10,854 nucleotides of DNA from a virus: the UHGV virus genome UHGV-0142836, one strand, 5' to 3'. Position numbers and translations under genes: made by a program. The notes below the pieces were generated by a model. That model was not told where the DNA came from. It did no database searches and worked only from the letters and a program-made list of their open reading frames with translations. Of this stretch, positions 1 through 10,854 are shown one piece after another; positions within the stretch are counted from its first letter, which is position 1, and each line of letters begins with the position of its first letter.

Positions 1-692
1 TCATAGTTCCTTCGTAGTTCCTCTTAAAAAATCACTTACAGACACCTTAATATCTATACAGATTTCACGTAGAACACGATTAGTGCGTAAAACAGCTATT
101 ATGTTAAAAACACACTGTATACGTATCAGTACTGATTTATAAGGGTTTTGTGTATTTGAAGATAAGAGGCTATACAGCACCTTGAGAGCATGTCTTCTAA
201 GTCATTGATACATAAGGTCACAGAAGTTTGTGTCTGTTACAGAGAAAACTGGATAGGACTTCACAGAACTACAAAATGTTACAGCTATTGATAGGTGAAA
301 TCTTCTTGATAGATGCTTTGAAGTGTGGTGAAGGTTTCTTGAGGTGGAATTAACAGATGCTATGAAGAAAGTCAATAGTTGGTTATAGATATTTTAACTG
401 CTTTTGCAAAGGGGGTGCTATATCGTGAATCTGGGGTACTTAACAGCCATCAATCATGAGGTAGATTCTACCGAATCAACTGTGTAGATATTTTTAAGAT
501 TATCGGTGAAGGGGGAATGCAGAGGGGGTACTACGATTTTTATAAAAATTTTCAGAAGCTAAATAACTACTGTACAGATTTTATACAACTCTACCAAACA
601 TCATAGAAAGCTCTGTAGCGAGTTTTAACCCCATTTTTAGGGGTAGTCTATAGGTATGTACCGCCCACCTTTAAATAAAGGGGTAAAATCGC

Positions 693-723
693 TTAGAATG
701 CGTTACAGAGCGTCTGAGAAGCT
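693..723. repeat. Solo copy of an R2 arm (see R2 copies at 1949-2047 and 3622-3750)
   Basis: 'ttagaatgcgttacagagcgtctgagaagct' matches the reverse complement of 3622-3652 with about 4 central mismatches, and also resembles the R2 right-arm core 'cgttacagagcg'. Confidence 0.5.
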
Positions 724-1490
724 ATATTCACAGATTTTACTAAAACCTCAGACTTTCTAAGTGGTCTTTTTAACAGGAGGGTTCTTTCTCATGTATCACC
801 CTCTCTTCCCACTGAGTAAGCTACACAGACCTAGAGAACATGCCTTCACAACACCTATATAGGTCAGATTTAGAGGGTTTTGATAGAATCTTCAAAGGTA
901 CTTGACAGATAACTATGAAGTTGTTAGGAAGGAGTGTTTAACGGGGGAAGAGATACGATATAACCCGAAGGGGAGAGTATCATCTTAACAGTGATTGTAA
1001 GAGTAAAACTGAAAAGATACTTAACAGAACTACCAAGAGGGAGCGATAAGACCAGAGGTAGTGACCTTGTTAAACAGTTCGTTTCAAAGCTCTTAAGAAT
1101 CTGTTAAGTAAGGTCATGTGAACAATCTTACCATTTTGTCAATGCTTTTGTCTTTGACCTAAATCAATAAAATGTATCGTTTGATATGTTTTTAAACAAA
1201 ATAGTTAAAAATCTTTTTAGAGGTGCGCTTCGCTTGTGTCACCAATATCATTCTTCCCTGTCTAAGAGGGAAGTTACAGGGCATTTCAAAGCCCTCAATA
1301 GGCAAACCGAGGAATACGGAAAACCGAGGGAAGAAAAACTATTGTGATTACCTTGAACAAGGTCTGTAAAGGTCGTTTAAGAGGTCGGTTAAGAAGGGAG
1401 CTTCCCTTTCTTGGGTGTCGCTCTTCTCCCGCTTAGTGGATTGATTAAGAAGACCTCTGAAGTTTCTCTGTGAAGGTGCTGAACAGCTAT

Positions 1491-1543
1491 TATATTGGGT
1501 GATTACAACTTATTGAAAAATAAGAACTTTTATAAGTTACTGT
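1491..1543. repeat. 53-bp direct repeat, copy 1, containing palindrome 'cttattgaaaaataag' (1509-1524)
   Basis: First 42 bp are identical to 1585-1626, then 2 mismatches in the next 11 bp; internal 6-bp inverted repeat CTTATT/AATAAG around GAAA, followed by AACTT-ttat-AAGTT. Confidence 0.7.
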
Positions 1544-1584
1544 TAAGGTTACAGAGTTAACTGTGAAGAGACTTGTCAGTCTTA

Positions 1585-1637
1585 TATATTGGGTGATTAC
1601 AACTTATTGAAAAATAAGAACTTTTAGAAATTACTGT
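1585..1637. repeat. 53-bp direct repeat, copy 2 (94 bp downstream of copy 1)
   Basis: Same sequence as 1491-1543, including the internal palindromes. Confidence 0.7.
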
Positions 1638-1719
1638 CAGAGAGGTGAATACTTGATAGATACAGCTTTCCGGTTCTGTCAAGCTATTTTTTAATAGATA
1701 GCACAAAATGCTAAAGATA

Positions 1720-1749
1720 CCCCCCTATACATCTCGTACAGGGGGTTTT
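1720..1749. terminator. Probable bidirectional intrinsic terminator
   Basis: GC-rich hairpin 'cccccctatac-atctc-gtacaggggg' (about 9 of 10 bp paired) followed by TTTT on the plus strand and by a T-rich run on the minus strand; lies 10 bp beyond the stop of the minus-strand gene at 1759. Confidence 0.45.
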
Positions 1750-1758
1750 GGAGGGGGT

Positions 1759-1935
1759 TTAGCGGGGGTCTGTATGGTCATTATCCTTAAGGTCAAGCGT
1801 CCATGTACGACCGAACAGTTTAAAGACAACAAGCACCCTGACGAGGACGTAGCGAAGTAGCAGACCTGCAATAAGTCCAATACCTCCACCAGCCCACACA
1901 TCAGGTGACCCCAATTCCTGAGGGAGATTTACCAT
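1759..1935 (-). CDS. Small hydrophobic membrane protein, 58 aa (MVNLPQELGSPDVWAGGGIGLIAGLLLRYVLVRVLVVFKLFGRTWTLDLKDNDHTDPR)
   Basis: The six-frame ORF runs 1759-1977 from a TTG; the in-frame ATG at 1935-1933 is preceded by AAGGA about 7 nt upstream. One predicted transmembrane stretch (GGGIGLIAGLLLRYVLVRVLVVF). Terminator immediately downstream. Function not recognised. Confidence 0.4.
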   Translation of the reverse strand: MVNLPQELGSPDVWAGGGIGLIAGLLLRYVLVRVLVVFKLFGRTWTLDLKDNDHTDPR

Positions 1936-1948
1936 TAGTTTTCCTTGT

Positions 1949-2047
1949 AAGACGCTCTCAATCGCATTCTGACACAAAAAGTATCTGACCTTATGAGTTG
2001 ACCTGAAGAGGCCGTTTAACTCGTTACAGAGCGATTGAAGAGGTCTG
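1949..2047. repeat. R2 element copy 1: inverted-repeat arms (1951-1970 and 2014-2047) around a ~40-bp spacer
   Basis: Left arm 'gacgctctcaatcgcattct' and right arm 'gtttaactcgttacagagcgattgaagaggtctg' are near-identical to the arms at 3631-3650 and 3717-3750; the arms are imperfect reverse complements of each other (GCGATTGA core). Confidence 0.6.
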
Positions 2048-2079
2048 TGTGCAATGCAATAACCATGTGACCAAATACA

Positions 2080-2118
2080 TAGTTGATTCGGTTAGTTGGG
2101 ATTGTACCAACCCCTATC
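2080..2118. repeat. att-like composite repeat (left copy): 18-bp part A at 2080-2097 fused to 26-bp part B at 2093-2118
   Basis: 'tagttgattcggttagtt' is identical to 10825-10842; 'tagttgggattgtaccaacccctat' matches 10529-10554 with 2 mismatches. A degenerate A-like sequence 'catagttccttcgtagttcc' also sits at 2-21. Confidence 0.45.
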
Positions 2119-2204
2119 GAATAAACCTCATAGCCACGCCTTTATATTTTACTCTCCCCATAAACCCATTATACCACAGATGTTAATAAAATGTTAAAAA
2201 ATAC

Positions 2205-2233
2205 TTGACATTAGCCTTTGAAAATGCTAGGAT
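2205..2233 (+). promoter_or_regulatory. Sigma70-like promoter P1: TTGACA, 17-bp spacer, TGcTAGGAT (extended -10)
   Basis: TTGACA at 2205-2210 and TAGGAT at 2228-2233 with TG at 2225-2226; followed by 'ttgtatatat', which is shared with promoter P2 at 4197-4225. Confidence 0.4.
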
Positions 2234-2283
2234 TGTATATATGAGTTAACAGAGAATTAACAATTATAAGGGCCAGCTTATGA

Positions 2284-2835
2284 ATGAACGACAGAGAATT
2301 TCAAAAGTTTCTTGAAGAATCCAAGAGACGCAACAGACACAACGGTTACAGCCACACAAACAACCCCACCAGATACGAAGTCCCAGCCTTTACCAAATCC
2401 GAACGTAAAAACATTGAAGCGGTCATTCGTAGCATTACGCCACGAGACAGATTTATGCCAGCACGCAAAGAAAAAGAGAATACTTTAAAAACTTTCTTGA
2501 TGGGCTTTGATTCTTACGAGCAACTGCCAGCAAAAATTGAAGATTTAATTATCGGCACTTGTCGCAGCTTTGGAAGAGATAATTATCACCGAAAAGTTTT
2601 CTATTTACTACGAAATATTGACAAGATTAGCTCAAGCACAATAACAAGTCATCTACAGCGTCAAGCGACCCGATTAAGCCATGAGCTACCAAGCGATAAA
2701 TATTGCGCTAACTTAGCCACTATTTGCATGAAAGTTATTGAGACAATTAATCATCATGCGGAAATGGGAAATATCAGCCTTACGACAAGTGAGCCAGACT
2801 TTGAGTTTGACCCGTATATTTTGGAGGAATTTTAA
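2284..2835 (+). CDS. Hypothetical protein, 183 aa
   Basis: Intact ORF downstream of P1; its stop is 1 nt before the next start. No recognisable motif; weak Shine-Dalgarno. Confidence 0.55.
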   Translation: MNDREFQKFLEESKRRNRHNGYSHTNNPTRYEVPAFTKSERKNIEAVIRSITPRDRFMPARKEKENTLKTFLMGFDSYEQLPAKIEDLIIGTCRSFGRDNYHRKVFYLLRNIDKISSSTITSHLQRQATRLSHELPSDKYCANLATICMKVIETINHHAEMGNISLTTSEPDFEFDPYILEEF

Positions 2836-2836
2836 A

Positions 2837-3115
2837 ATGAATAAACACACTCTAACCCGTATTTCAGAGGAAGCTTTTAACGAGCTTAACAGAATTAAAC
2901 GAGCGACTAACCTGCCTCATCAGACTATTATGCAGCTTGCAATTGCTAAAGAGGTCACTGAGTCGGATTTACTGAAATATCCAGTTTCTAAAGGTCGCAG
3001 ACACATCAGAATTACTAAGAACGCTCTGGCTACTCTGAAGGAACTGAACAACTTTAAAATTGATATTGCCCGACTATTGAGCATCAAGATTCACAAGCTA
3101 TCGATGGGGGTTTAA
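2837..3115 (+). CDS. Putative small DNA-binding protein, 92 aa, possibly ribbon-helix-helix
   Basis: GGAGG at 2823-2827 sits 9 nt before ATG 2837. The track ORF (2738-3115) extends upstream inside the previous gene, so the internal ATG is preferred. N-terminus 'HTLTRISEEAFNELNRIKRATNLPHQTIMQLAIAKE' fits a strand-helix-turn-helix RHH pattern (inference only). Confidence 0.45.
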   Translation: MNKHTLTRISEEAFNELNRIKRATNLPHQTIMQLAIAKEVTESDLLKYPVSKGRRHIRITKNALATLKELNNFKIDIARLLSIKIHKLSMGV

Positions 3116-3318
3116 TGCTATGCATTACCTTTGAATACCACACAGATAAAATGATTCGCTACATCTCCGACCTCCTGATTAAAGGAAACGGATTCGGTGA
3201 CATCCATAACTCAAAAGATATTTTCATTAAAGCCATTGGCCCAAATGAAACACTGAAAACAGCAGTTAAACCGGAATGGTTTGAACGTCATAAGATTGAA
3301 TTAGGTTATTGGGGGTGA
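3115..3318 (+). CDS. Hypothetical protein, 67 aa
   Basis: Start overlaps the previous stop (TAATG at 3113-3117), indicating translational coupling. No recognisable motif. Confidence 0.45.
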   Translation: MLCITFEYHTDKMIRYISDLLIKGNGFGDIHNSKDIFIKAIGPNETLKTAVKPEWFERHKIELGYWG

Positions 3319-3327
3319 GGAGGTTTT

Positions 3328-3615
3328 ATGAAACCTTGGCATGAAGATGTTAGAAGATATTTTGCAGAACACCTTATCTATGATGAATCCAGTGATTCCC
3401 TGTGCTGGTCTGATGGAGAGTCAGTCACGATAAATACCGACGACTACGGCAACAAAACATTTAATATAGGTCGATACACATTCTATGTGAAATATGTTGT
3501 CTGGTTCCTTTATCATGGCTATCAATCCAATAAGCAAATTATCCATCGAAATGGTAACAGAGCCGATACCAGACCAAAAAACCTTATGCAAGTCCGAGAC
3601 TTTAAGAGAAATTAG
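3328..3615 (+). CDS. Small HNH-family endonuclease, 95 aa
   Basis: GAGGAGG immediately upstream of ATG 3328. C-terminal 'YVVWFLYHGYQSNKQIIHRNGNRADTRPKNLMQV' matches the phage HNH pattern (HRlvw...H-x-dGn-x-dNr-x-NL). Confidence 0.55.
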   Translation: MKPWHEDVRRYFAEHLIYDESSDSLCWSDGESVTINTDDYGNKTFNIGRYTFYVKYVVWFLYHGYQSNKQIIHRNGNRADTRPKNLMQVRDFKRN

Positions 3616-3621
3616 AAAAAC

Positions 3622-3750
3622 AGCTTCTCAGACGCTCTCAATCGCATTCTAACGCAAAAAACTACCTTGTTTTAGGGTGGGTAATACCACTGTACAGGCT
3701 ACCCCTGAAAAAGACTGTTTAGCTCGTTACAGAGCGATTGAGGAGGTCTG
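3622..3750. repeat. R2 element copy 2: arms at 3631-3650 and 3717-3750 around a ~66-bp spacer containing hairpin GGGTA...TACCC and palindrome CTGTACAG
   Basis: Arms near-identical to copy 1 while the spacer is unrelated; the element ends 5 nt before the AAGGAG Shine-Dalgarno of the gene at 3772. Confidence 0.6.
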
Positions 3751-3771
3751 GTAAAAAGGAGATTTTAAGAA

Positions 3772-4095
3772 ATGAACAATTACGAATTACAGATTTTCGT
3801 TGATGCCGACACTGCTATGATGATTCAGGCTTTCAGTGATTCCGGTGTATCAATTGACTTTGATAAATTACTAAAGCTGATGGCTGATAATGCAGAAAAC
3901 ATCTCTGACTTTATTCAGTCGGTGGAGTTTAACGAGCCTCGAATGATGCTACCAATTACAGACTCAAACATGAAAAGATTGGTTATTGAGCAAACGAACA
4001 AATACAGTATTTCCCCAGAGCAATTTTTGAAAGGTGCTGTGACAATCCTGTACAGCGATAATATTTTGGTGACGGATTCTGTGAGGATTCACTAA
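3772..4095 (+). CDS. Hypothetical protein, 107 aa
   Basis: AAGGAG sits 10 nt upstream of ATG 3772; intact ORF; no recognisable motif. Confidence 0.55.
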   Translation: MNNYELQIFVDADTAMMIQAFSDSGVSIDFDKLLKLMADNAENISDFIQSVEFNEPRMMLPITDSNMKRLVIEQTNKYSISPEQFLKGAVTILYSDNILVTDSVRIH

Positions 4096-4172
4096 TGACG
4101 TTAATTGTATTATGGACGCTGCTAGGGCTATTTGTTGGTTGCTGGATGGGTAACACAGTAAATAAGAATTGA
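4095..4172 (+). CDS. Candidate 25-aa hydrophobic micropeptide (MTLIVLWTLLGLFVGCWMGNTVNKN)
   Basis: ATG overlaps the upstream stop (TAATG at 4093-4097), the same coupling geometry as at 3113-3117; single hydrophobic helix. Below the ORF-track size cutoff, hand-translated. Confidence 0.25.
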   Translation: MTLIVLWTLLGLFVGCWMGNTVNKN

Positions 4173-4196
4173 TGTTACCAATCTGTTAAAAAGCTG

Positions 4197-4225
4197 TTGA
4201 CAAATAACATTGAGCATGACATAAT
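4197..4225 (+). promoter_or_regulatory. Sigma70-like promoter P2: TTGACA, 17-bp spacer, CATAAT
   Basis: TTGACA at 4197-4202 and CATAAT at 4220-4225, followed by 'ttgtatatat' exactly as in P1. Confidence 0.4.
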
Positions 4226-4232
4226 TGTATAT

Positions 4233-4416
4233 ATAGGGAGAGCAATTCTCTCTTATTTTCTTTCAATAATCCGATGGATGGATATTCTGAGTTGGAAAGG
4301 TGCAATGCTTTTCGTCATGGCCTTTCAGTTTAGTCTGAGAGGCTATCTCAAAAAGTGCTTAATCATTCATTGAACCCTTTACAGCTTTGCCCTAACTCAT
4401 GATTAGGGCTTTCTTT
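4233..4416 (+). ncRNA. Candidate small RNA or structured leader transcribed from P2, ending at the first terminator
   Basis: About 185 nt between the predicted start site and the terminator at 4389-4416; no ORF with a ribosome-binding site; hairpin GAGAG-caatt-CTCTC directly after the predicted start. Confidence 0.25.
4389..4416 (+). terminator. Intrinsic terminator T1
   Basis: Perfect 7-bp stem GCCCTAA / TTAGGGC with a 7-nt loop, followed by TTTCTTT. Confidence 0.5.
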
Positions 4417-4485
4417 AAGAGTTTTTAAACAGAGCTTTTAAAGAAAGTTTTTCCTGAAACTTCGTTAACGTTAAAGCAAACCTTC

Positions 4486-4519
4486 AAAGCCCTTCACAGA
4501 TTATGTTTAGGGCTTTTTT
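4486..4519 (+). terminator. Intrinsic terminator T2
   Basis: Stem 'aaagccct' / 'agggcttt' with a 15-nt loop, followed by a T-run; its 3' half 'tttagggcttt' repeats T1. Confidence 0.45.
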
Positions 4520-4629
4520 CAGCTTTTAAAAAGCATACTTGGCAAACCGCCTTTTAAGCCTCTTCTAAGTTCGTAGGATGTCAGGTGTGCTTTTTAAAAA
4601 CTGAATATTACTTAGAAGAGGAAAATGAA

Positions 4630-5337
4630 ATGGAAAATCTATATATTAGCGGTAGAAAGGTTGATAGCTTCGGTGACTGGTCGCCACAGACTGAACATCC
4701 AGCTATCACTATTCAGCGTCAAGAGCATGACAAGCGCATTGAGCTTGAGCAATCGCTAAAGATGTCACCAAAAACAACCATCTTTGTGTCTCCTGAACCT
4801 CAAGAGATGCCTGATGTTTGCAAGGGTGAAGCATTACTTGAGCTTGAAAAGAAATATTACCCACTGCTGAAAGCACAAAGAATTAAACTTGATGACGCTT
4901 ACAGCAAAGTTACCCTGATGCAATCAGCTATTGAGCCATCAGAATTTGAGATTCAGGATGAATTGTCACAGAAACCATTTGTCTATTACCAATACGAAGA
5001 CAATGATGGTTTTGGTACTTTTCCTGAGAATATCCCAGACGTGATTAATAATCTTCCTGATGGATATCGAATTGTGAAAATGATTGGAGCTTCAAGAGGT
5101 GATGGTCAGTTTATTTACATGACCAATAAGAGCGATGAAGAACTCCGTGAAATTGCCAGACAGAACATCTTAGCATCACGTAACAAGCAACTTGAAAATG
5201 TTAAGTTGTGTCTCTTAAGAGAGCTTCAGGCTATGAAAGACCTTATTTCTGCATATGAAACGCAGAAGAAGATTGCTATGCAGGCTGATATTGAGCAGTT
5301 AGTGAAGATTTCTCAGAAGTATAGCAAGGTACTTTAA
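4630..5337 (+). CDS. Hypothetical protein, 235 aa, with a predicted coiled-coil C-terminus
   Basis: The six-frame ORF begins at GTG 4585; the in-frame ATG at 4630 has a GAGGA Shine-Dalgarno about 8 nt upstream. No recognisable domain. Confidence 0.55.
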   Translation: MENLYISGRKVDSFGDWSPQTEHPAITIQRQEHDKRIELEQSLKMSPKTTIFVSPEPQEMPDVCKGEALLELEKKYYPLLKAQRIKLDDAYSKVTLMQSAIEPSEFEIQDELSQKPFVYYQYEDNDGFGTFPENIPDVINNLPDGYRIVKMIGASRGDGQFIYMTNKSDEELREIARQNILASRNKQLENVKLCLLRELQAMKDLISAYETQKKIAMQADIEQLVKISQKYSKVL

Positions 5338-5361
5338 CTAATAATTAAAAGGAGGTGATGA

Positions 5362-5577
5362 ATGATTGATTTGCAACAGCGTTATGAAACTATTAAGTCG
5401 GCTTGCAAAAACTTAAAGTTACAAACTAAGCCAGCCTTAAGAATTAAAACCAAACGTCAAGTTATCACCTCACACAAACCAAAAACACGCAAGATTCCAA
5501 AGTGGTGTATCGACCGTATCCCTTCTGATGCCCAAATCATAGGTGAAACGGAATTACATTATCTTGTCAGACATTAA
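5362..5577 (+). CDS. Hypothetical basic protein, 71 aa
   Basis: Strong Shine-Dalgarno AAGGAGGTGA before ATG 5362; Lys/Arg-rich; terminator follows. Confidence 0.5.
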   Translation: MIDLQQRYETIKSACKNLKLQTKPALRIKTKRQVITSHKPKTRKIPKWCIDRIPSDAQIIGETELHYLVRH

Positions 5578-5624
5578 AAAGATTGGTTGGGTGTATGAGA
5601 TAGGTTCTATCGAATCTATAACAC

Positions 5625-5668
5625 GGGGAGAGATTATCGATATTATTCGGTAGTTTCTCCCTTTTTTG
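5625..5668 (+). terminator. Intrinsic terminator after the 71-aa gene
   Basis: Stem GGGAGA (5626-5631) / TCTCCC (5656-5661), extendable with G-U pairs, followed by TTTTTT at 5662-5667. Confidence 0.5.
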
Positions 5669-5684
5669 TATATGAGATAGTCTT

Positions 5685-5769
5685 CTATCGAATCCTATGT
5701 GCTACGTGAAATCTTCTGAACAGATATACCCACCAAAAATTATTTTTTACGTAGCTCACGCTTAACAGA
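5685..5769 (+). repeat. R1 element copy a: conserved stem-loop (GCTACGTGAA 5701-5710 pairing with TTTACGTAGC 5745-5754) plus box 'tcacgcttaacaga', 16 nt before ATG 5785
   Basis: About 85% identical over ~85 bp to 7957-8034, with the same spacing to the downstream start codon. Confidence 0.65.
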
Positions 5770-5784
5770 GGTGAAATATGAACA

Positions 5785-7875
5785 ATGGCACAATTTAAAG
5801 TTGATAGTTTTATCGTTGAGCTAGGCTTCAGCGAGAGCGTTATTAAGGGCTTGCAAAGAGTTGAAAAGGCAGCTTTGCAGTCAGCACAAAGAATTGAAAA
5901 GAACCTAAATAAAGGTTTTAGGATTAATACAAAGCAGCTTGATAGTAATTTAACGGCTTCTTTAGGGCAGCTTGAAAGAAAGTTTAATAAGACTTTTGAT
6001 AAGATTGAACAGAGAGCAAGAAATACTAAAGCTTTCCAGTTTACAACCAGATTTAATGACACTGTTAATCCTCCAAAACAATCAAGGCAACCACGAATTA
6101 GCGGAAACAGAGCAATCACAGCAGCGCATAGCGTGAATATGTCTAAGCTTGGTGATATTAATCCGCTGATGGCTAAAATGTTTAAAGCACAGTATTACAG
6201 CTTAAGCGGTAAGGCTGGTAATATTGGAAGTGAAAAGTTTAACGCTGAACTTGCAAAATTAAATCAATCTCTTCGTGAAACGTTGAATAAACTCAGGTCA
6301 CAGACAAAGACCACCAGCAAAAACAATCACAGTGAAAATGCTTCGAATGGTCTGGATGTATTAGCTACGAGTGCAATCAAAGCAGGTACAGCCATTTATA
6401 GTTTTCAGACAGCCTTAGAAGCTTACAAGAAGGTTATGGAGGTTGGTCTGAAAAAAGAAGCATCACAACGAGCGGCACAATTCGTTTTAGGTGATGAAGG
6501 TGCTAAACGAGCTACAGAATTTGTGAAGAATCTTGCTAATAATACAGGTGTTGACCAGATTGAGACATTAAGCAGCTTTGCTAAGTTTTCCGCTGGTGCT
6601 GGTGATATGAATGCAGACCAGAAAGAATCCTTATTTAGTAATGTGATTGGTACATCCCGACTAATGGGTTTAAGCACTGATGAGATTAACGGGATTCTAA
6701 AAGCTTTCGAGCAGATGGCTTCTAAAGGGAAGATTCAGGCTGAAGAGCTACGTGGTCAATTAGGGGACAGAATGGCAGGTGCTTTTCAGTTATTTGCCAG
6801 AAGCCTTGGGATGACTACAGAGCAATTAGATGCAGCTATGAAGAACGGTAAAGTTCTTTCTAAAGATGTTCTTCCTAAAGTATCCGCTGAAATGGGAAGG
6901 ATGATTGATAAAGCTGGTGGATGGGAAAAGATTATTAACTCTACTCAGACGCAGTTAGGCCGCCTTTCTAATTCATGGAATAATAATCTGGCCTTAATGT
7001 TCGATGGTTCACAGGAAGGTTTAACAGACTTTACAAGGTCACTGACTAATTTACTTAATTCGCTAGGTGGGCAATCTAAAAATCTTGGTGAACATTTTGG
7101 CGACTTGATGAAAAGTATGTCAAACGGTATTGATGATTTAACCACGATTAGCTACCGAGTGCAGGGATTCTTTGACAGAGTGACCCTTGCTTACAGAGAA
7201 TTAAATGACACTCAAAAAGCTGTAGCTGATGGTATCGCAAATGGCCTGTTAAGTGCATTAAAGGGACTTGCTGGTATTGTTGCTGTAAGGTCTGGTATTG
7301 GTGCTGTAGGTGGCATCTGGAACTTAATTAGGGCTATTTCCACGCTTGGAAATGTAGCAAATACAGCAGCGGGAAGAATCAATTCACGTTCTGGTACTGG
7401 TAGTGTTGAAGGTGGTAAAGGAAAATTATCTGTAGCTGATGCAATTACCAAAGTAATGATTGTTGGTATGGCAACTGATGTGATTAACTCCATTGTTAAA
7501 CCGTTCTATGAACGTCAGATGAGTAAGTCAGATAATCCAATTGACAAAGTTGTAAGGTCAAAGGTGGAACCCACAGACCAAGCATTGACTGGTGACATGA
7601 ACTCTTTAGCTGCTGTTTTATGGGCTATGGTTCAGGGCAAATCAAAGGATGTTCCACAGCTTTCACCTGAAGCATTAAATAATCTGAAAGGTCGAGTGGA
7701 AACATTCACACAAGATTTAAAGGTTATCAAGCCGTCAGTAAACATTCAGCCTCAGACAATCAATATCACAACTCAGACGGTACTTGATGGAAAGGTTATT
7801 GATGAAAGAACCACATCGCATATTAATCGTATGCAGGAAGATACCTTGATTAGCTCAGCTTACCCAGAGGAATAA
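5785..7875 (+). CDS. Protein with a phage tail tape-measure-like domain, 696 aa
   Basis: The segment 'FEQMASKGKIQAEELRGQLGDRMAGAFQLFARSLGMTTEQLDAAMKNGKVLSKDVLPKV' resembles the conserved tape-measure domain of lambda-like phages; Gly/Ala-rich hydrophobic stretch 'GLLSALKGLAGIVAVRSGIGAVGG'. Unusually short for a tape measure and lacking neighbouring tail genes. Confidence 0.5.
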   Translation: MAQFKVDSFIVELGFSESVIKGLQRVEKAALQSAQRIEKNLNKGFRINTKQLDSNLTASLGQLERKFNKTFDKIEQRARNTKAFQFTTRFNDTVNPPKQSRQPRISGNRAITAAHSVNMSKLGDINPLMAKMFKAQYYSLSGKAGNIGSEKFNAELAKLNQSLRETLNKLRSQTKTTSKNNHSENASNGLDVLATSAIKAGTAIYSFQTALEAYKKVMEVGLKKEASQRAAQFVLGDEGAKRATEFVKNLANNTGVDQIETLSSFAKFSAGAGDMNADQKESLFSNVIGTSRLMGLSTDEINGILKAFEQMASKGKIQAEELRGQLGDRMAGAFQLFARSLGMTTEQLDAAMKNGKVLSKDVLPKVSAEMGRMIDKAGGWEKIINSTQTQLGRLSNSWNNNLALMFDGSQEGLTDFTRSLTNLLNSLGGQSKNLGEHFGDLMKSMSNGIDDLTTISYRVQGFFDRVTLAYRELNDTQKAVADGIANGLLSALKGLAGIVAVRSGIGAVGGIWNLIRAISTLGNVANTAAGRINSRSGTGSVEGGKGKLSVADAITKVMIVGMATDVINSIVKPFYERQMSKSDNPIDKVVRSKVEPTDQALTGDMNSLAAVLWAMVQGKSKDVPQLSPEALNNLKGRVETFTQDLKVIKPSVNIQPQTINITTQTVLDGKVIDERTTSHINRMQEDTLISSAYPEE

Positions 7876-7899
7876 ACAATGTTAGAACTACTAATATTT

Positions 7900-7917
7900 A
7901 TTGCCACACATGGCAAT
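7900..7917. repeat. Perfect palindrome ATTGCCA-caca-TGGCAAT just downstream of the 696-aa gene
   Basis: 7-bp arms with a 4-nt spacer; possible weak terminator or operator. No clear T-tract. Confidence 0.3.
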
Positions 7918-7956
7918 CTATTAATCTTTATCTAGTATGACGATTCAACTATGAAT

Positions 7957-8034
7957 AGTCGAATGCTACGTGATTTCTTCTGAACAGATACCAACATCAA
8001 AAATTAGATTTCACGTAGCTCACGCTTAACAGAA
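7957..8034 (+). repeat. R1 element copy b: stem GCTACGTGA (7965-7973) / TCACGTAGC (8011-8019), box 'tcacgcttaacaga' (8020-8033), 15 nt before ATG 8049
   Basis: Perfect 9-bp stem with a 37-nt loop whose sequence ('tcttctgaacagata...caaaaatta') is conserved with copy a. Confidence 0.65.
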
Positions 8035-8048
8035 TAGGAATAACAACA

Positions 8049-8819
8049 ATGTTTGACACAAAGCAAATTAGATACTCAGGTAAAGATGGTATCTATTTTC
8101 ACCTTAGAGATAATGTAGAATCTTTTCTTGCCTTAACAGCTACTGAACAGATGGACTATGACAGCCCTATGATGGTGACAACTCAGGCTATGCAATCAGG
8201 GCAAACCGTCACAGATAATGTTCAGAGAGCACCTAAGACCATCTCTATTAGCGGTGTTGTAGTGGTTGATTCGACGGGTTCAATTCTATTAACCAGACAG
8301 GGGCAACTTGTAGAGACCTTTATTTCTACGGTTGAACAATGGCGAGACCAGAAGCAAATCATCACTATTGTTTGTAGAGATGGAATAGCTATCACTGATA
8401 GTATCATTACTCAGTTTAAAGCGAGTAAAGAGCATACCATTGCTAATGGTCTTCGTATTCAGATGACCTTCCAAGGTGTAGAATTTCGTTCAATCGTAGG
8501 TCAAACTGATATTTCGGCTGCAACTGGAAAAGCCGCGACTACGAATGATGGTGGTGCTACCAGTAAAAAGAATACAGGGAATACTACGACAAGTTTAGGT
8601 AATGGTATGTTGCTGTGTCAGGAGTTATATAATCGCTCTACGAGTGAACTCACTAATGAGCAACTTCAAGCCCGTATCAATTGTGGTAGAAGTGTCAAAG
8701 TTGAGAACGGAAAAAGCACCTTCTCAGATGCCGCTAATGAGCAGGCTTCAAAAGTGCTTAAGTCGGGTAATGCTTTACGGAAATTTAGTGTGAATCCGAA
8801 TAAGAAGGGCACTTATTGA
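8049..8819 (+). CDS. Hypothetical protein, 256 aa, with a Thr/Gly/Ser-rich central region
   Basis: Intact ORF immediately after R1b; no recognisable motif. A distal-tail or other structural role is conceivable only from its position after the tape-measure-like gene. Confidence 0.55.
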
Positions 8820-8828
8820 GACATAAAA

Positions 8829-8846
8829 AGGGGCTTCATAGCCCCT
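8829..8846. terminator. Bidirectional terminator between the convergent 256-aa gene and the recombinase gene
   Basis: Perfect stem AGGGGC / GCCCCT with a 6-nt loop, flanked by AAAAA upstream (a T-run on the minus strand, so it reads as a terminator for the recombinase transcript). Confidence 0.5.
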
Positions 8847-8851
8847 GAAAA

Positions 8852-10372
8852 TTACAGTTGATAAGCGTCAATATCCAGTAGCTCTTTATCAGCAATTTCA
8901 AAGATTGGTGACCCATCATTTAGCGGTAACGGGTTTGTAGGTATGGTGATTTTAGTGTCGTTCTGTAGCGTTACAGTTACCGAATCCTTACCCAATGTAA
9001 GCCCTTTTAGATGTTTGGACAAAATCAACTGACACTCGACACGACCTGCTTTAGTTGTCAGGTCAATATCTTTAAGCTGGGGTAGTTCCTTATCAGTGAG
9101 TGAAGCCTTACGCCTCATGTTATCAATCGTGGTCTGTAGCTCTGTGCGCTTCTGGTTAAGTCCCTTCACCTGTGTTTTCAACTCTGTAATATCATCCATT
9201 TCAAGAAGTAGGGCGGTAGCTTTCTTGATTCTAGCTGTGACAATTTCAACCTCATGCTGTAACGCTGCAATCTTCCTCTCTGATTCTCCATCATTCCCCA
9301 CGTCAATCATCCCCAGAAAATTATCAATCATCCATCGGTCAAACGGTTTACGCTTCAACGGTGGAACATCACAGCGACCGTCAGGATTGTTATTGCACCT
9401 GTAAACTCCTGCATACTTATTCTTAGTCCCTGTAGGGTGAACACTAGCCCCACACTGACACCGGAATAATCCCTTGAAGATGTTAATCGTTAATGGGTTA
9501 TCACTTGCAGGTGTACGGCCTTTACGATTTTTATCGAGGATTTCTTGAGCTTTATTGAACGTTGCAGCATCTATAGCGGCTTCGTAGTAGTTCGGTATAG
9601 CGGGGCGGTCATTGCGCTGTGATGCTGGTAACGTGCCTATTGTTGTCTCCGACCTTAAGATGGTGCGTACAGAGTGGACACTAAACCCGTTAGCATCTTT
9701 ACGCCGTGAGAATGAACTAATGTTATTAGCCTGTAGGTGACGTGCAATGTTATGTAGACTTTCACCATCTAGCAGCAGTTTGAAAATCAGTCTTACAGTC
9801 TCAGCGTGTTCATTGACTTCAAAAGTCTCAGGGTCAATCCATCCGGGGACCATCTTTGTTAAACGTTGTTTACCAGCAAGGGCAAGTTTTGCACGTTGCC
9901 CCCATTTCTGAGAAACACGGAAAGACTTCTGTTTACTCTCCTGATGCGCTAGGTAGCTTTTAACCCGCTGAATGATTGAGATTCCTAAATCATCGGATAG
10001 AGCATCCCTTGTGTAGATTAGCCCATCCTGTAGAGTGTGAATCTCGATACCATGAGCAATAATGCGGTTCATCAAGGCTTCTGTTTCAAGGTGTTCTAAG
10101 CGGCCTATACGGTCGATACTCTCAACAAGCAAAATCGTACCTTTTGAAAACTCCCCAGACTCAATACGGGCTAACATGTCACCAAACTGACCAGTAAGGT
10201 GCTTACCTTTGTAACCGGATAGACCCTCATCACTGAAAGACGCTACTACTTGAGCATCGCTATTCTTCTTCAACCATTGCTTGAACAGGTCATTTTGTCG
10301 TCTGGTTGAATCTGCACCTTCAGCGCCTTGTATGGCTGAACTGTACCGAAGGTATGTAATTACGCTTCTCAT
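8852..10372 (-). CDS. Large serine recombinase (phage or element integrase), 506 aa
   Basis: N-terminal resolvase-type catalytic domain (YLRYSS...Q with the Ser nucleophile, DEGLSGYKG, IDRIGR); a Cys cluster (CQCGASVH...YRCNNNPDGRCD) consistent with a zinc ribbon; C-terminal coiled-coil segment. Confidence 0.9.
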   Translation of the reverse strand: MRSVITYLRYSSAIQGAEGADSTRRQNDLFKQWLKKNSDAQVVASFSDEGLSGYKGKHLTGQFGDMLARIESGEFSKGTILLVESIDRIGRLEHLETEALMNRIIAHGIEIHTLQDGLIYTRDALSDDLGISIIQRVKSYLAHQESKQKSFRVSQKWGQRAKLALAGKQRLTKMVPGWIDPETFEVNEHAETVRLIFKLLLDGESLHNIARHLQANNISSFSRRKDANGFSVHSVRTILRSETTIGTLPASQRNDRPAIPNYYEAAIDAATFNKAQEILDKNRKGRTPASDNPLTINIFKGLFRCQCGASVHPTGTKNKYAGVYRCNNNPDGRCDVPPLKRKPFDRWMIDNFLGMIDVGNDGESERKIAALQHEVEIVTARIKKATALLLEMDDITELKTQVKGLNQKRTELQTTIDNMRRKASLTDKELPQLKDIDLTTKAGRVECQLILSKHLKGLTLGKDSVTVTLQNDTKITIPTNPLPLNDGSPIFEIADKELLDIDAYQL

Positions 10373-10528
10373 GGTGATAAACTCTCATGCAATTGATTAT
10401 CATTTAAAGATAAGCTTATAACCGTTATGGCTAATGCTACAATGCCGAATAGCTACAATACAATGACCCTTGAATGAAGTCTATTCGGTTTTCTAAGAGA
10501 CCTGTTAAAAACAGGACAATATCAGGTG

Positions 10529-10554
10529 TAGTTGGGCTTGTTCCAACCCCTATG
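10529..10554. repeat. att-like repeat part B (right copy), containing hairpin GTTGG-gcttgtt-CCAAC
   Basis: 'tagttgggcttgttccaacccctat' matches 2093-2118 with 2 mismatches; lies about 155 bp upstream of the recombinase start. Confidence 0.4.
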
Positions 10555-10824
10555 ACTATGCAATTTTCCAAGTATCTAAGCAGTTTTACACAGATTCTAT
10601 GCAGTATCGGTATAGTCCCTTTTTATCATAACTTATTGAAATATATAAAGAATATGTGAAGTCCCTTTTCAGGGTAAACTGTATCGTGTTAGTCGTCCCT
10701 CTCCAGACTCCTAGAAAAGTGCTATATACAGGAGTATATAACGCTATATAGATGTTTGGTCACCATACGTTACAGTTGCAAGAGATAACAATCAGCTATG
10801 TGAAAGTTAGGAGGTGATGGTTAT

Positions 10825-10842
10825 AGTTGATTCGGTTAGTTC
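10825..10842. repeat. att-like repeat part A (right copy), 18 bp identical to 2080-2097
   Basis: Exact 18-bp direct repeat about 8.75 kb from its partner; flanking sequence differs on both sides, as expected for a recombination junction. Confidence 0.45.
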
Positions 10843-10854
10843 TAGGAATCAACC

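What the first reader, a model, noticed from the sequence alone, without database searches (positions are those of the whole stretch)
1720..2050. Convergent small membrane protein gene with structured 5' region and G-rich 3' end
The 58-aa single-helix protein is encoded opposite to every other gene on the left side, has its own Shine-Dalgarno and terminator, and its upstream region on the minus strand is R2 copy 1. Three G5 runs (1741-1772) overlap its 3' end and terminator. Small hydrophobic proteins in this arrangement are often holin-like, superinfection-exclusion or type I toxin proteins; the R2 hairpin could be the control point.
Basis: inference. Interest (0 to 1): 0.4.

Follow-up and report, generated by a model that had tools for sequence, protein, structure and literature searches.

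The report
Small membrane protein of satellite-like island
This is a real, conserved gene for a 58-residue single-helix membrane protein with its own promoter and terminator, next to the control region of a phage-satellite-like island of E. coli; its function is unknown, and the hairpin proposed as its control point is an optional insert.

Summary
The ORF at 1935..1759 (minus strand) is a genuine gene. It is intact in all 18 related islands examined (Escherichia coli, E. albertii, Citrobacter). It is the only frame open in all 10 islands tested, with pooled dN/dS 0.22 and indels of 3 and 12 nt. It encodes one long helix with a GxxxGxxxG motif and invariant R28, Y29 and R33. It has no detectable relatives outside this island family.

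The gene forms its own unit: a strong sigma-70-type promoter (2197..2168), a conserved Shine-Dalgarno, the ORF, and a C/G-clamped hairpin at 1721-1745. It is divergent from the island's main operon rather than convergent with protein genes, because the 1.7 kb to its left holds no supported protein-coding gene.

R2 copy 1 is a ~101-nt palindromic insert that is precisely missing from islands with an intact ORF. It leaves the Shine-Dalgarno unpaired, so it is not an essential control point. Conserved TTAACA-N5-TTAACA operator-like repeats overlapping the promoter are a better candidate. Two of the three G5 runs are not conserved.

Function is inferred only. I favour a carrier-state inner-membrane accessory protein that excludes phage, analogous to HK97 gp15. 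Type I toxin and holin readings are weaker. Interest is moderate to low; the surrounding island is the more interesting object.

The parts
1759..1935 (-). Coding sequence of the 58-aa protein MVNLPQELGSPDVWAGGGIGLIAGLLLRYVLVRVLVVFKLFGRTWTLDLKDNDHTDPR; the TAA stop is at 1759-1761.
   Evidence: Intact with an ATG start in 18 of 18 related loci. It is the only frame open in 10 of 10 islands, with pooled dN/dS 0.22. Indels are 3 and 12 nt, and variable columns per codon position are 20/6/29. PGAP annotates it in some genomes, e.g. WP_044863321.1.
1940..1946 (-). Shine-Dalgarno AAGGAAA, 4 nt upstream of the ATG.
   Evidence: Conserved in all islands that carry R2. AGGAAA or GAAGG takes its place where R2 is absent. 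It is unpaired in the minimum-free-energy folds.
1936..2161 (-). Inferred 5' UTR of about 226 nt. The transcription start is inferred from the -10 element, not measured.
   Evidence: By the same inference, the UTR is about 125 nt in L010 and about 75 nt in Citrobacter L016.
1944..2047 (.). R2 copy 1, a ~101-nt imperfect palindrome. Its boundaries are ambiguous by 2-3 nt because of a flanking CT repeat. In the mRNA it forms a long hairpin ending 5 nt upstream of the Shine-Dalgarno.
   Evidence: Repeat families D2 and D3. Fold energy -35 kcal/mol, z = -1.96. Precisely absent in L010, L011, L015 and L016. Covariation is not significant.
2076..2130 (.). A second optional hairpin insert in the 5' UTR (approximate limits). 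It has a near-copy at 10529-10553, at the same distance upstream of the integrase start codon.
   Evidence: Present or absent between islands in the alignment. Repeat D16. Alignment.
2168..2197 (-). Promoter of the small gene: TTAACA, 18-nt spacer, TGgTATAAT (extended -10 with a consensus -10).
   Evidence: Matches 11 of 12 consensus positions plus the TG. Both hexamers are conserved in the E. coli islands aligned, and the same TTAACA...TATAAT arrangement is present in L010 and Citrobacter L016.
2181..2197 (-). Operator-like direct repeat TTAACA-N5-TTAACA. One half-site is the -35 element of the small-gene promoter.
   Evidence: Six matches at up to 1 mismatch against 0.17 expected by chance. 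The exact pattern is present in 16 of the 17 loci held at that point, including Citrobacter L016.
2246..2262 (+). Mirror-image TTAACA-N5-TTAACA repeat on the other side of the main-operon promoter.
2205..2233 (+). Divergent promoter of the main operon: TTGACA, 17-nt spacer, TGcTAGGAT.
1721..1745 (.). Terminator-like hairpin with a 10-bp stem clamped by C5/G5. It is usable on both strands.
   Evidence: -23.3 kcal/mol for the 76-nt stretch 1690-1765, z = -3.1 on the mRNA strand. Present 13-19 nt after the stop in every Escherichia island. Inverted in L008, with an insert in its loop in L009, and absent in Citrobacter.
1741..1768 (+). Three G5 runs at 1741-1745, 1753-1757 and 1764-1768.
   Evidence: Present in the window. 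Only the first run, which is the terminator stem, is conserved.
3624..3750 (+). R2 copy 2, in the same orientation as copy 1, between the HNH gene and the 107-aa gene.
   Evidence: Fold energy -46.5 kcal/mol, z = -3.6. Not found in L003 and L008, which lack the 67-aa gene and have a weak (L003) or no (L008) match to the window's HNH gene.
616..735 (-). R2 copy 3, inverted and with a diverged second arm.

Best explanation
The locus is a self-contained expression unit: a strong sigma-70-type promoter, a variable 5' UTR, a good Shine-Dalgarno, a 58-62 codon ORF and a hairpin terminator. It sits in a mosaic E. coli/Citrobacter integrative island whose tape-measure and adjacent tail genes are homologous to those of Felixounavirus phages.

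Shown: the product is a single-pass protein carrying a glycine zipper (G16xxxG20xxxG24).

Inferred:
- The topology is N-terminus outside, C-terminus inside, because all Lys and Arg residues lie on the C-terminal side.
- The protein is made by host RNA polymerase in the uninfected carrier cell. It acts at the inner membrane through specific contacts of its conserved periplasmic (NLPxELGS) and cytoplasmic (FGxxWxxDLK) tails.
- The most likely role is a phage-directed accessory factor that interferes with genome entry of incoming phages or satellites. This would resemble HK97 gp15, a 62-aa moron protein that excludes superinfecting phage.
- Control is exerted at the promoter, through the TTAACA-N5-TTAACA operator-like repeats it shares with the main operon. 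Where the R2 hairpin is present it is at most an accessory leader element, for example an RNA stabiliser or processing site.
For: Gene reality:
- The ORF is intact in 18 of 18 loci.
- It is the only open frame in the 10 islands tested, with pooled dN/dS 0.22.

Membrane helix:
- Hydropathy supports a membrane segment.
- AlphaFold2 predicts a single helix, with pLDDT about 90 over residues 21-40.
- 32 of 58 positions are invariant, including both tails.

Autonomous unit:
- The promoter matches 11 of 12 positions with a TG extension, is conserved across the E. coli islands aligned, and the same hexamers are present in L010 and Citrobacter L016.
- The Shine-Dalgarno is unpaired in the predicted folds.
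- A terminator-like hairpin follows the ORF in every Escherichia island.

Control:
- Operator-like repeats occur 6 times against 0.17 expected. They flank both sigma-70-type promoters of the island and are conserved in Citrobacter.

Context:
- The island's tape-measure gene and the gene after it are homologous to adjacent Felixounavirus tail genes.
- The small ORF is found only in this island family. All hits lie on chromosomes (401 of 5426 E. coli genomes), with none in the phage collection; the whole window, ORF included, found nothing in the plasmid collection.

Analogue:
- HK97 gp15 is 62 aa with one N-terminal hydrophobic segment. In the HK97 record it is annotated as a moron product with a putative terminator after it, and it lies next to the tape-measure gene.
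- Its exclusion role is named in the titles of Cumby et al. 2012 and 2015, seen in the reference list read.
Against: - There is no sequence similarity to gp15 (hhalign probability 1.6%) or to any Pfam, PHROG, NCBIfam, PADLOC or PDB entry.
- Expression in uninfected cells is inferred from a consensus promoter match only.
- A constitutive block of helper-phage entry would work against a satellite lifestyle.
- The two alleles of the small ORF do not track the tape-measure type. L012 pairs an A-type small protein with a tape-measure protein only 48% identical, which argues against a strict pairing between the two.
- Two invariant arginines inside the hydrophobic segment are unusual for a plain membrane anchor.
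Confidence: 0.35

Rival explanations
1. It modulates lysis timing during helper infection. It would work like LidI of the Vibrio PLE satellite, or as a holin or antiholin-like protein, changing when the infected cell lyses to the island's advantage.
For: LidI of PLE1 and PLE2 is a 66-aa protein with a transmembrane domain and no known homologues, and it was previously unannotated. It belongs to a satellite of a lytic phage and is sufficient to collapse lysis inhibition (PMC7182436). The present protein is similar in size, has one transmembrane helix and carries a charged C-terminal tail.
Against: LidI is detectable only late in infection. This gene instead has a consensus-like host promoter and lacks the GCTACGTGAAATCT motif found upstream of the island's tail genes. 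No endolysin or spanin gene is present. No similar protein was found in 50,697 phage records.
Confidence: 0.15
2. It is a type I toxin or a post-segregational killing module. The small hydrophobic peptide would damage the membrane unless an antisense RNA held it in check, thereby stabilising the island.
For: The hydrophobic ORF is shorter than 60 codons. The leader is long and structured in many islands. The left flank is conserved and has no supported protein-coding gene. It has a plus-strand promoter-like site at 902-930 and a hairpin supported by compensatory changes. An RNA from there could converge on the ORF and share the hairpin at 1721-1745, as in fst/RNAII-type loci. That comparison rests on my background knowledge.
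Against: The Shine-Dalgarno and AUG are unpaired in the predicted folds. No plus-strand promoter was detected between 700 and 2205 at the scan threshold. No direct repeat links the leader to the left-hand RNA region, apart from the palindromic R2 copy upstream of that promoter. The structured leader is dispensable. The promoter is strong. Conservation across the whole protein, including both soluble tails, fits specific partner binding better than generic membrane damage.
Confidence: 0.12
3. It is a regulatory or sensing component of the island switch. A membrane-tethered peptide would hold or release an island regulator, or sense membrane disturbance caused by phage injection, and so couple infection to island induction.
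For: The gene occupies the position next to the divergent, operator-laden promoter region, where satellites and prophages usually place their maintenance gene. Its -35 element is itself an operator half-site. No conventional repressor gene was recognised in the island.
Against: The cytoplasmic tail is only about 20 residues. I know of no precedent for so small a protein controlling a satellite switch. There is no direct evidence.
Confidence: 0.1
4. It is a host-physiology small protein, modulating a transporter or sensor kinase, and is carried as cargo unrelated to phage.
For: From background knowledge, many bacterial single-pass small proteins act this way. The gene assorts independently of the other island modules.
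Against: It occurs only within this island family, always at the same position beside the switch region.
Confidence: 0.08

Closest known systems
HK97 gp15 (moron-encoded superinfection exclusion protein)
   Same: Similar size (62 aa against 58-62 aa). One hydrophobic helix plus a short hydrophilic tail. The gene is followed by its own terminator (annotated as putative in the HK97 record). Both lie in an element that also carries a tape-measure gene.
   Different: There is no sequence similarity. In gp15 the hydrophobic segment starts at the very N-terminus, whereas here a conserved 13-residue tail precedes it. gp15 lies inside the tail operon, whereas this gene lies beside the switch region. 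The exclusion phenotype has not been tested here.
LidI of Vibrio cholerae PLE satellites
   Same: A small membrane protein (66 aa) with no known homologues, encoded by a satellite of a lytic phage (PMC7182436). PLE integrates with a large serine recombinase according to the PLE papers listed; I did not read them.
   Different: LidI is made only late in ICP1 infection. This gene has a host-type promoter outside the phage-responsive part of the island.
Type I toxins (hok, tisB, fst and similar)
   Same: A short hydrophobic ORF on a mobile element, with a long leader in some copies and a possible convergent non-coding RNA.
   Different: The ribosome-binding site is accessible, no antisense promoter lies opposite the ORF, the leader structure is dispensable, and the soluble tails are strongly conserved.

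Membership tests
Type I toxin-antitoxin | Small (under 60 aa) hydrophobic membrane peptide | tested here: met
   58-62 aa with one helix; the best Kyte-Doolittle 19-mer scores 2.29.
Type I toxin-antitoxin | Antisense or partly complementary antitoxin RNA gene with its own promoter | tested here: inconclusive
   No plus-strand promoter lies between 700 and 2205 at the scan threshold. However, a conserved plus-strand promoter-like site at 902-930, followed by a structured region, could produce an RNA that converges on the shared hairpin at 1721-1745. RNA-seq is needed.
Type I toxin-antitoxin | Toxin mRNA kept translationally inert by sequestering the Shine-Dalgarno or AUG | tested here: not met
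   The Shine-Dalgarno is unpaired in the minimum-free-energy and centroid folds of the window leader. The leader hairpin is absent in L010, L011, L015 and L016.
Type I toxin-antitoxin | Toxicity or membrane depolarisation on expression | not testable with these tools
   Requires an experiment.
Holin | Located in a lysis cassette with endolysin and spanin genes | tested here: not met
   No lysis enzyme was recognised among the island proteins. The only 'endolysin' PHROG hit belongs to the Dit-like tail protein, whose far better match is an unknown-function tail-module family.
Holin | At least one transmembrane domain and a charged hydrophilic C-terminus | tested here: met
   The C-terminal 20 residues carry 4 Lys/Arg and 4 Asp.
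HK97 gp15-type exclusion moron | Sequence homology to gp15 | tested here: not met
   hhalign probability 1.6%.
HK97 gp15-type exclusion moron | Autonomous cassette of promoter, ORF and terminator encoding a single-pass inner-membrane protein | tested here: met
   This rests on prediction only, with no expression data.
HK97 gp15-type exclusion moron | Blocks phage genome entry | not testable with these tools
   Requires plating-efficiency and injection assays.
PLE LidI | Sequence homology to LidI | not tested
   The LidI sequence is not held in the available text.
PLE LidI | Expressed only during helper infection and collapses lysis inhibition | not testable with these tools
   The host-type promoter argues against infection-only expression, but this is inference.

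The most novel reading that the evidence does not exclude
The small protein is the carrier-state membrane component of an undescribed family of satellite-like islands that depend on Felixounavirus phages. It would act as an inner-membrane gatekeeper that recognises or blocks tape-measure-mediated genome entry. In doing so it would either exclude competing particles or couple phage injection to induction of the island.
Probability: 0.1. Interest if true: 0.7.

Novelty: new member of a known kind. Interest (0 to 1): 0.35.

Why it matters
About 7% of complete E. coli genomes (401 of 5426) carry this gene, and automated annotation calls it only inconsistently. It is the one island gene, apart from the integrase, that reads away from the main operon. 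Its promoter is strong and host-type, so it is the best candidate for whatever the island does to its host before a phage arrives. If it excludes phage or changes lysis timing, it would affect the susceptibility of clinical and food-borne E. coli to Felix O1-like phages, which from my background knowledge are used for typing and therapy. It would also add a new family of small anti-phage membrane proteins. On present evidence it is a well-supported small gene with no known relatives and an unknown function.

Tried and rejected
- Homology searches found nothing outside the island family. Libraries searched: Pfam, PHROGs, NCBIfam and PADLOC; 5.8 billion proteins by word index; a profile search of 1.84 billion cluster representatives; tblastn against 50,697 phage records at E <= 10; PDB sequences; and Rfam over the whole window.
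- R2 as an antisense pair. The leader copy 1 could pair with copy 2 in the operon mRNA, as in P4-like RNA immunity. I rejected this as a general mechanism. Copy 1 occurs without a detected copy 2 in L003 and L008, and copy 2 occurs without copy 1 in L010 and L011.
- R2 as a genome-wide mobile repeat. It occurs only in genomes that carry this island family: 400 genomes have R2 and 401 have the ORF.
- Covariation in the R2 leader hairpin is not significant: 228 of 500 shuffles do as well, with one compensatory pair. The helix does pair better in the mRNA sense (97.7% against 87.6% of cells), but the structure was derived from that sense.
- G-quadruplex: only three G5 runs, two of them not conserved, and on the mRNA they read as C runs.
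- The 72-aa form starting at TTG is rejected, because the extension lies inside R2, which is absent in L010 and L016.
- The overlapping ORFs at 1725-1901 (minus) and 1708-1860 (plus) are rejected. Those frames contain stops in 9-10 of 10 islands, and the codon-position pattern of substitutions fits only the chosen frame.
- Double-glycine microcin leader: the spacing does not fit, and the island has no exporter or immunity genes. This was judged by inspection.
- Co-variation of small-protein alleles with tape-measure type shows no clear association.
- RNAalifold on the terminator region failed because MAFFT misaligned the two arms. Per-sequence folds were used instead.
- Literature searches found no description of this island family.

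Full report
**What is at the coordinates**

The minus strand carries an ORF from ATG 1935 to the TAA stop at 1759-1761. It encodes 58 aa: MVNLPQELGSPDVWAGGGIGLIAGLLLRYVLVRVLVVFKLFGRTWTLDLKDNDHTDPR.
- AAGGAAA (1940-1946) lies 4 nt upstream of the ATG.
- A C5/G5-clamped 10-bp hairpin at 1721-1745 begins 14 nt after the stop codon.

**Is it a gene?**

Yes.
- Related DNA occurs in 570 of 5426 complete E. coli genomes, and the ORF itself in 401, always on the chromosome.
- The ORF is intact, starts with ATG and is 58-62 codons long in all 18 related loci fetched. These come from E. coli, E. albertii, viral-contig collections and a Citrobacter strain with only 59% amino-acid identity.
- In 10 E. coli islands whose synonymous divergence reaches about 0.65, pairwise dN/dS is 0-0.40.
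- Indels are 3 and 12 nt, and variable columns per codon position are 20/6/29.
- It is the only one of six frames open in all ten islands. Pooled dN/dS is 0.22; the other five frames give 0.29-6.3.
- The upstream TTG start that would give 72 aa lies in sequence missing from some islands, so the 58-aa form is the product.
- PGAP annotates the gene in some genomes and not in others.

**The protein**

- Hydropathy gives a clear membrane segment. The best 19-mer covers residues 19-37, with a Kyte-Doolittle mean of 2.29.
- AlphaFold2 with the family alignment predicts one continuous helix over residues 11-51, with pLDDT about 90 over 21-40.
- 32 of 58 positions are invariant across the family. They include an N-terminal NLPxELGS motif, W14, a GxxxGxxxG glycine zipper (16-24), R28, Y29 and R33 inside the hydrophobic stretch, and a C-terminal FGxxWxxDLK motif.
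- All Lys and Arg residues lie C-terminal to residue 27, and the N-terminal tail has net charge -2. An N-out, C-in topology therefore follows from the positive-inside rule. This is inference.
- There is no lipobox and no signal-peptide n-region.
- No homologue was found outside this island family in any search.

**The transcription unit**

- The best promoter match in the left 4.6 kb is on the minus strand at 2197..2168: TTAACA, 18-nt spacer, TGgTATAAT.
- It stands back to back with a plus-strand promoter at 2205-2233 (TTGACA, 17-nt spacer, TGcTAGGAT) that faces the first gene of the main operon at 2284.
- Both promoters are conserved across the E. coli islands aligned, and the same promoter hexamers are present in L010 and Citrobacter L016.
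- The small gene is therefore divergent from the island's main operon.
- To its left, window 1-1700 has no supported protein gene, so 'opposite to every other gene on the left' is not an accurate description.
- The hairpin after the stop codon is present in every Escherichia island. It is inverted in L008, carries a loop insert in L009 and is missing in Citrobacter.
- It pairs slightly better on the mRNA strand. It is followed by UUUU on the other strand, so it could terminate transcription from both directions.

**The proposed control point, R2**

R2 is a 100-125-nt imperfect palindrome with three copies in the window: 1944-2047, 3624-3750, and an inverted, diverged copy at 616-735.
- As part of the leader, copy 1 folds into a long hairpin of about -35 kcal/mol that ends 5 nt before the Shine-Dalgarno. 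The Shine-Dalgarno and AUG remain unpaired.
- Copy 1 is precisely absent, as a 101-nt indel between short CT repeats, in L010 and L011. It is also absent in E. albertii L015 and Citrobacter L016. All four keep the promoter, a Shine-Dalgarno and the ORF.
- In complete E. coli genomes about 213-235 carry a copy-1-type R2, against 401 that carry the ORF.
- Copy 2 was likewise not found in L003 and L008, which lack the 67-aa gene and have at best a weak match to the window's HNH gene.
- Substitutions in copy 1 are somewhat more compatible with pairing in the mRNA sense: 97.7% of cells paired against 87.6%, with one U-A to U-G to C-G series.
- The formal covariation test is not significant.
- A second leader hairpin at about 2076-2130 is also an indel between islands.

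R2 is therefore an optional palindromic module specific to this island family. It is not an essential regulator of the small gene.

**A better candidate for control**

- TTAACA-N5-TTAACA occurs exactly at 2181-2197 (minus) and 2246-2262 (plus), bracketing the main promoter. One half-site is the -35 element of the small-gene promoter.
- Further copies with one mismatch sit at 4173-4200, next to a second strong plus-strand promoter at 4197-4225.
- In total there are six matches at up to one mismatch against 0.17 expected by chance.
- The exact pattern is present in 16 of the 17 loci held at the time, and both copies are present in Citrobacter L016.
- The regulator that binds these sites was not identified.

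**G-rich 3' end**

- Run 1 is the terminator stem.
- Run 2 reads GGGAG or GGAG in most islands.
- Run 3 encodes the terminal Pro-Arg and varies between islands.
- G5 runs are not significantly enriched in the window as a whole.
- On the mRNA the runs read as C runs, so no G-quadruplex role is supported.

**Context**

- The window is an integrative island of about 11 kb. Relatives lie between yciI and tonB, or inside yecE.
- It carries a large serine recombinase, seven small genes that include an HNH endonuclease, and a tape-measure gene followed by a Dit-like gene. The last two correspond to adjacent genes of Felixounavirus phages.
- Those two genes show 74-76% nucleotide identity to the phage genes in patches. 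The tape-measure proteins are 29% identical overall, with conserved ends.
- The islands are mosaic. Each gene shows its own pattern of identity between islands.
- The two alleles of the small protein (58 aa, and 62 aa with an RTRT-type insert) do not track the tape-measure type.
- I found no paper that describes this island family.

**How it most likely works**

Shown: a conserved, purifying-selected, single-helix protein, encoded between a strong host-type promoter match (with an accessible ribosome-binding site) and a terminator-like hairpin, beside the island's switch region.

Inferred: it is produced in the uninfected carrier cell, inserts N-out/C-in, and works through specific contacts of its conserved tails and its glycine zipper.

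Readings, in order of preference:
1. A phage-directed accessory function at the inner membrane, most simply exclusion of incoming genomes (confidence 0.35). HK97 gp15 is the analogue: 62 aa, one hydrophobic helix, annotated in the HK97 record as a moron product with a putative terminator, and adjacent to a tape-measure gene. There is no sequence similarity, so this claims 'works like', not membership.
2. A LidI-like modulator of lysis timing (0.15). This is plausible because PLE satellites encode a comparable 66-aa protein. The host-type promoter and the position outside the phage-responsive genes count against it.
3. A type I toxin (0.12). The accessible ribosome-binding site, the lack of an antisense promoter, the dispensable leader and the conservation of the tails all weaken it. 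A probable plus-strand non-coding RNA converging on the shared terminator keeps it alive.
4. A sensing role in the island switch (0.10).
5. A host-physiology role (0.08).

**Verdict**

It is a new family with no known relatives, of a familiar kind: a small membrane protein of a mobile element. Interest in the gene itself is moderate to low. The surrounding island is the more notable object. It looks like an undescribed satellite-like or tail-interference element of Felix O1-like phages, with RNA and operator features of its own.

Noticed in passing
window 1-10854 (whole window); L001, L002, L010: The window is an integrative island of about 11 kb that I could not find described. It carries a large serine recombinase, seven small genes, and a tape-measure plus Dit-like gene pair homologous to adjacent Felixounavirus tail genes. 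Related DNA is in 570 of 5426 complete E. coli genomes, between yciI and tonB or inside yecE. It looks like a satellite or tail-interference island of Felix O1-like lytic phages.
   Followed up: partly
window 5700-5787 and 7964-8051; also 60-73 and 290-303: An 88-nt repeat lies directly upstream of both the tape-measure and the Dit-like genes. Each copy is a hairpin built from GCTACGTGAAATCT and its complement. The motif occurs 5 times at up to 2 mismatches against 0.08 expected, including two copies in the left flank. It may be a helper-responsive expression signal. It was not found in the 10.7-kb tail region of phage garuso.
   Followed up: partly
window 2181-2197, 2246-2262, 4173-4200, 1091-1107: TTAACA-N5-TTAACA repeats with 11-bp phasing flank both strong sigma-70-type promoters of the island. 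There are 6 matches against 0.17 expected, and the pattern is conserved in Citrobacter. They look like operators of an unidentified island regulator.
   Followed up: partly
window ~770-1745: The left flank has no supported protein-coding gene but is conserved: 80-92% identity in E. coli, 70% to Citrobacter, and blocks at 1121-1200 and 1507-1745 at 93% mean column identity or more. That exceeds the conservation of synonymous sites in the small ORF. A promoter-like TTGACA-17-TGtTAGGAA sits at 902-930 on the plus strand and is a paralogue of the main promoter. It is followed at about 948-990 by a hairpin with three fully compensated stem variants (GAUAC/GUAUC, GAACC/GGUUC, GUAAC/GUUAC). This is probably a plus-strand non-coding RNA converging on the small gene. 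There was no Rfam match.
   Followed up: partly
window 616-735, 1944-2047, 3624-3750: R2 is a palindromic module specific to this island family. It has three copies, one of them inverted, and occurs only in genomes that carry the island. Copy 2 directly follows the HNH endonuclease gene and was not found in L003 and L008, which lack the 67-aa gene and have at best a weak match to the window's HNH gene. Its function is unknown; candidates are an RNase III site, a mobile insert, or a protein-binding site.
   Followed up: partly
window 1491-1543, 1585-1637, 10625-10645; 2093-2117 and 10529-10553: A 53-nt unit is repeated 94 bp apart. L010 has only one unit, and there is a partial third copy near the integrase promoter. 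Separately, a 25-nt hairpin core occurs 158 nt upstream of the small-ORF ATG and again 157 nt upstream of the integrase ATG.
   Followed up: no
L001 3469-4044, L002 2023-2571, L004, L005, L006, L009, L016 7389-7958: Many related islands carry a small serine recombinase of about 190 aa (resolvase or invertase type) in the left arm, in either orientation relative to the rest of the island. The window has none. This may mark an invertible or variable cargo segment.
   Followed up: no
L008 ~2575-2600 (equivalent to window 1721-1745): In one island the terminator hairpin is the exact reverse complement of the usual sequence. This is a small inversion that preserves the stem-loop.
   Followed up: no
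window 5785-7875 against phage garuso gp118 (L018 4002-6209): The island tape-measure protein (696 aa) is only 29% identical overall to the phage protein (735 aa). It keeps a nearly identical first ~40 residues, a conserved central block and a similar C-terminal end. This pattern suggests that contacts with phage partners are retained while the rest has diverged.
   Followed up: partly
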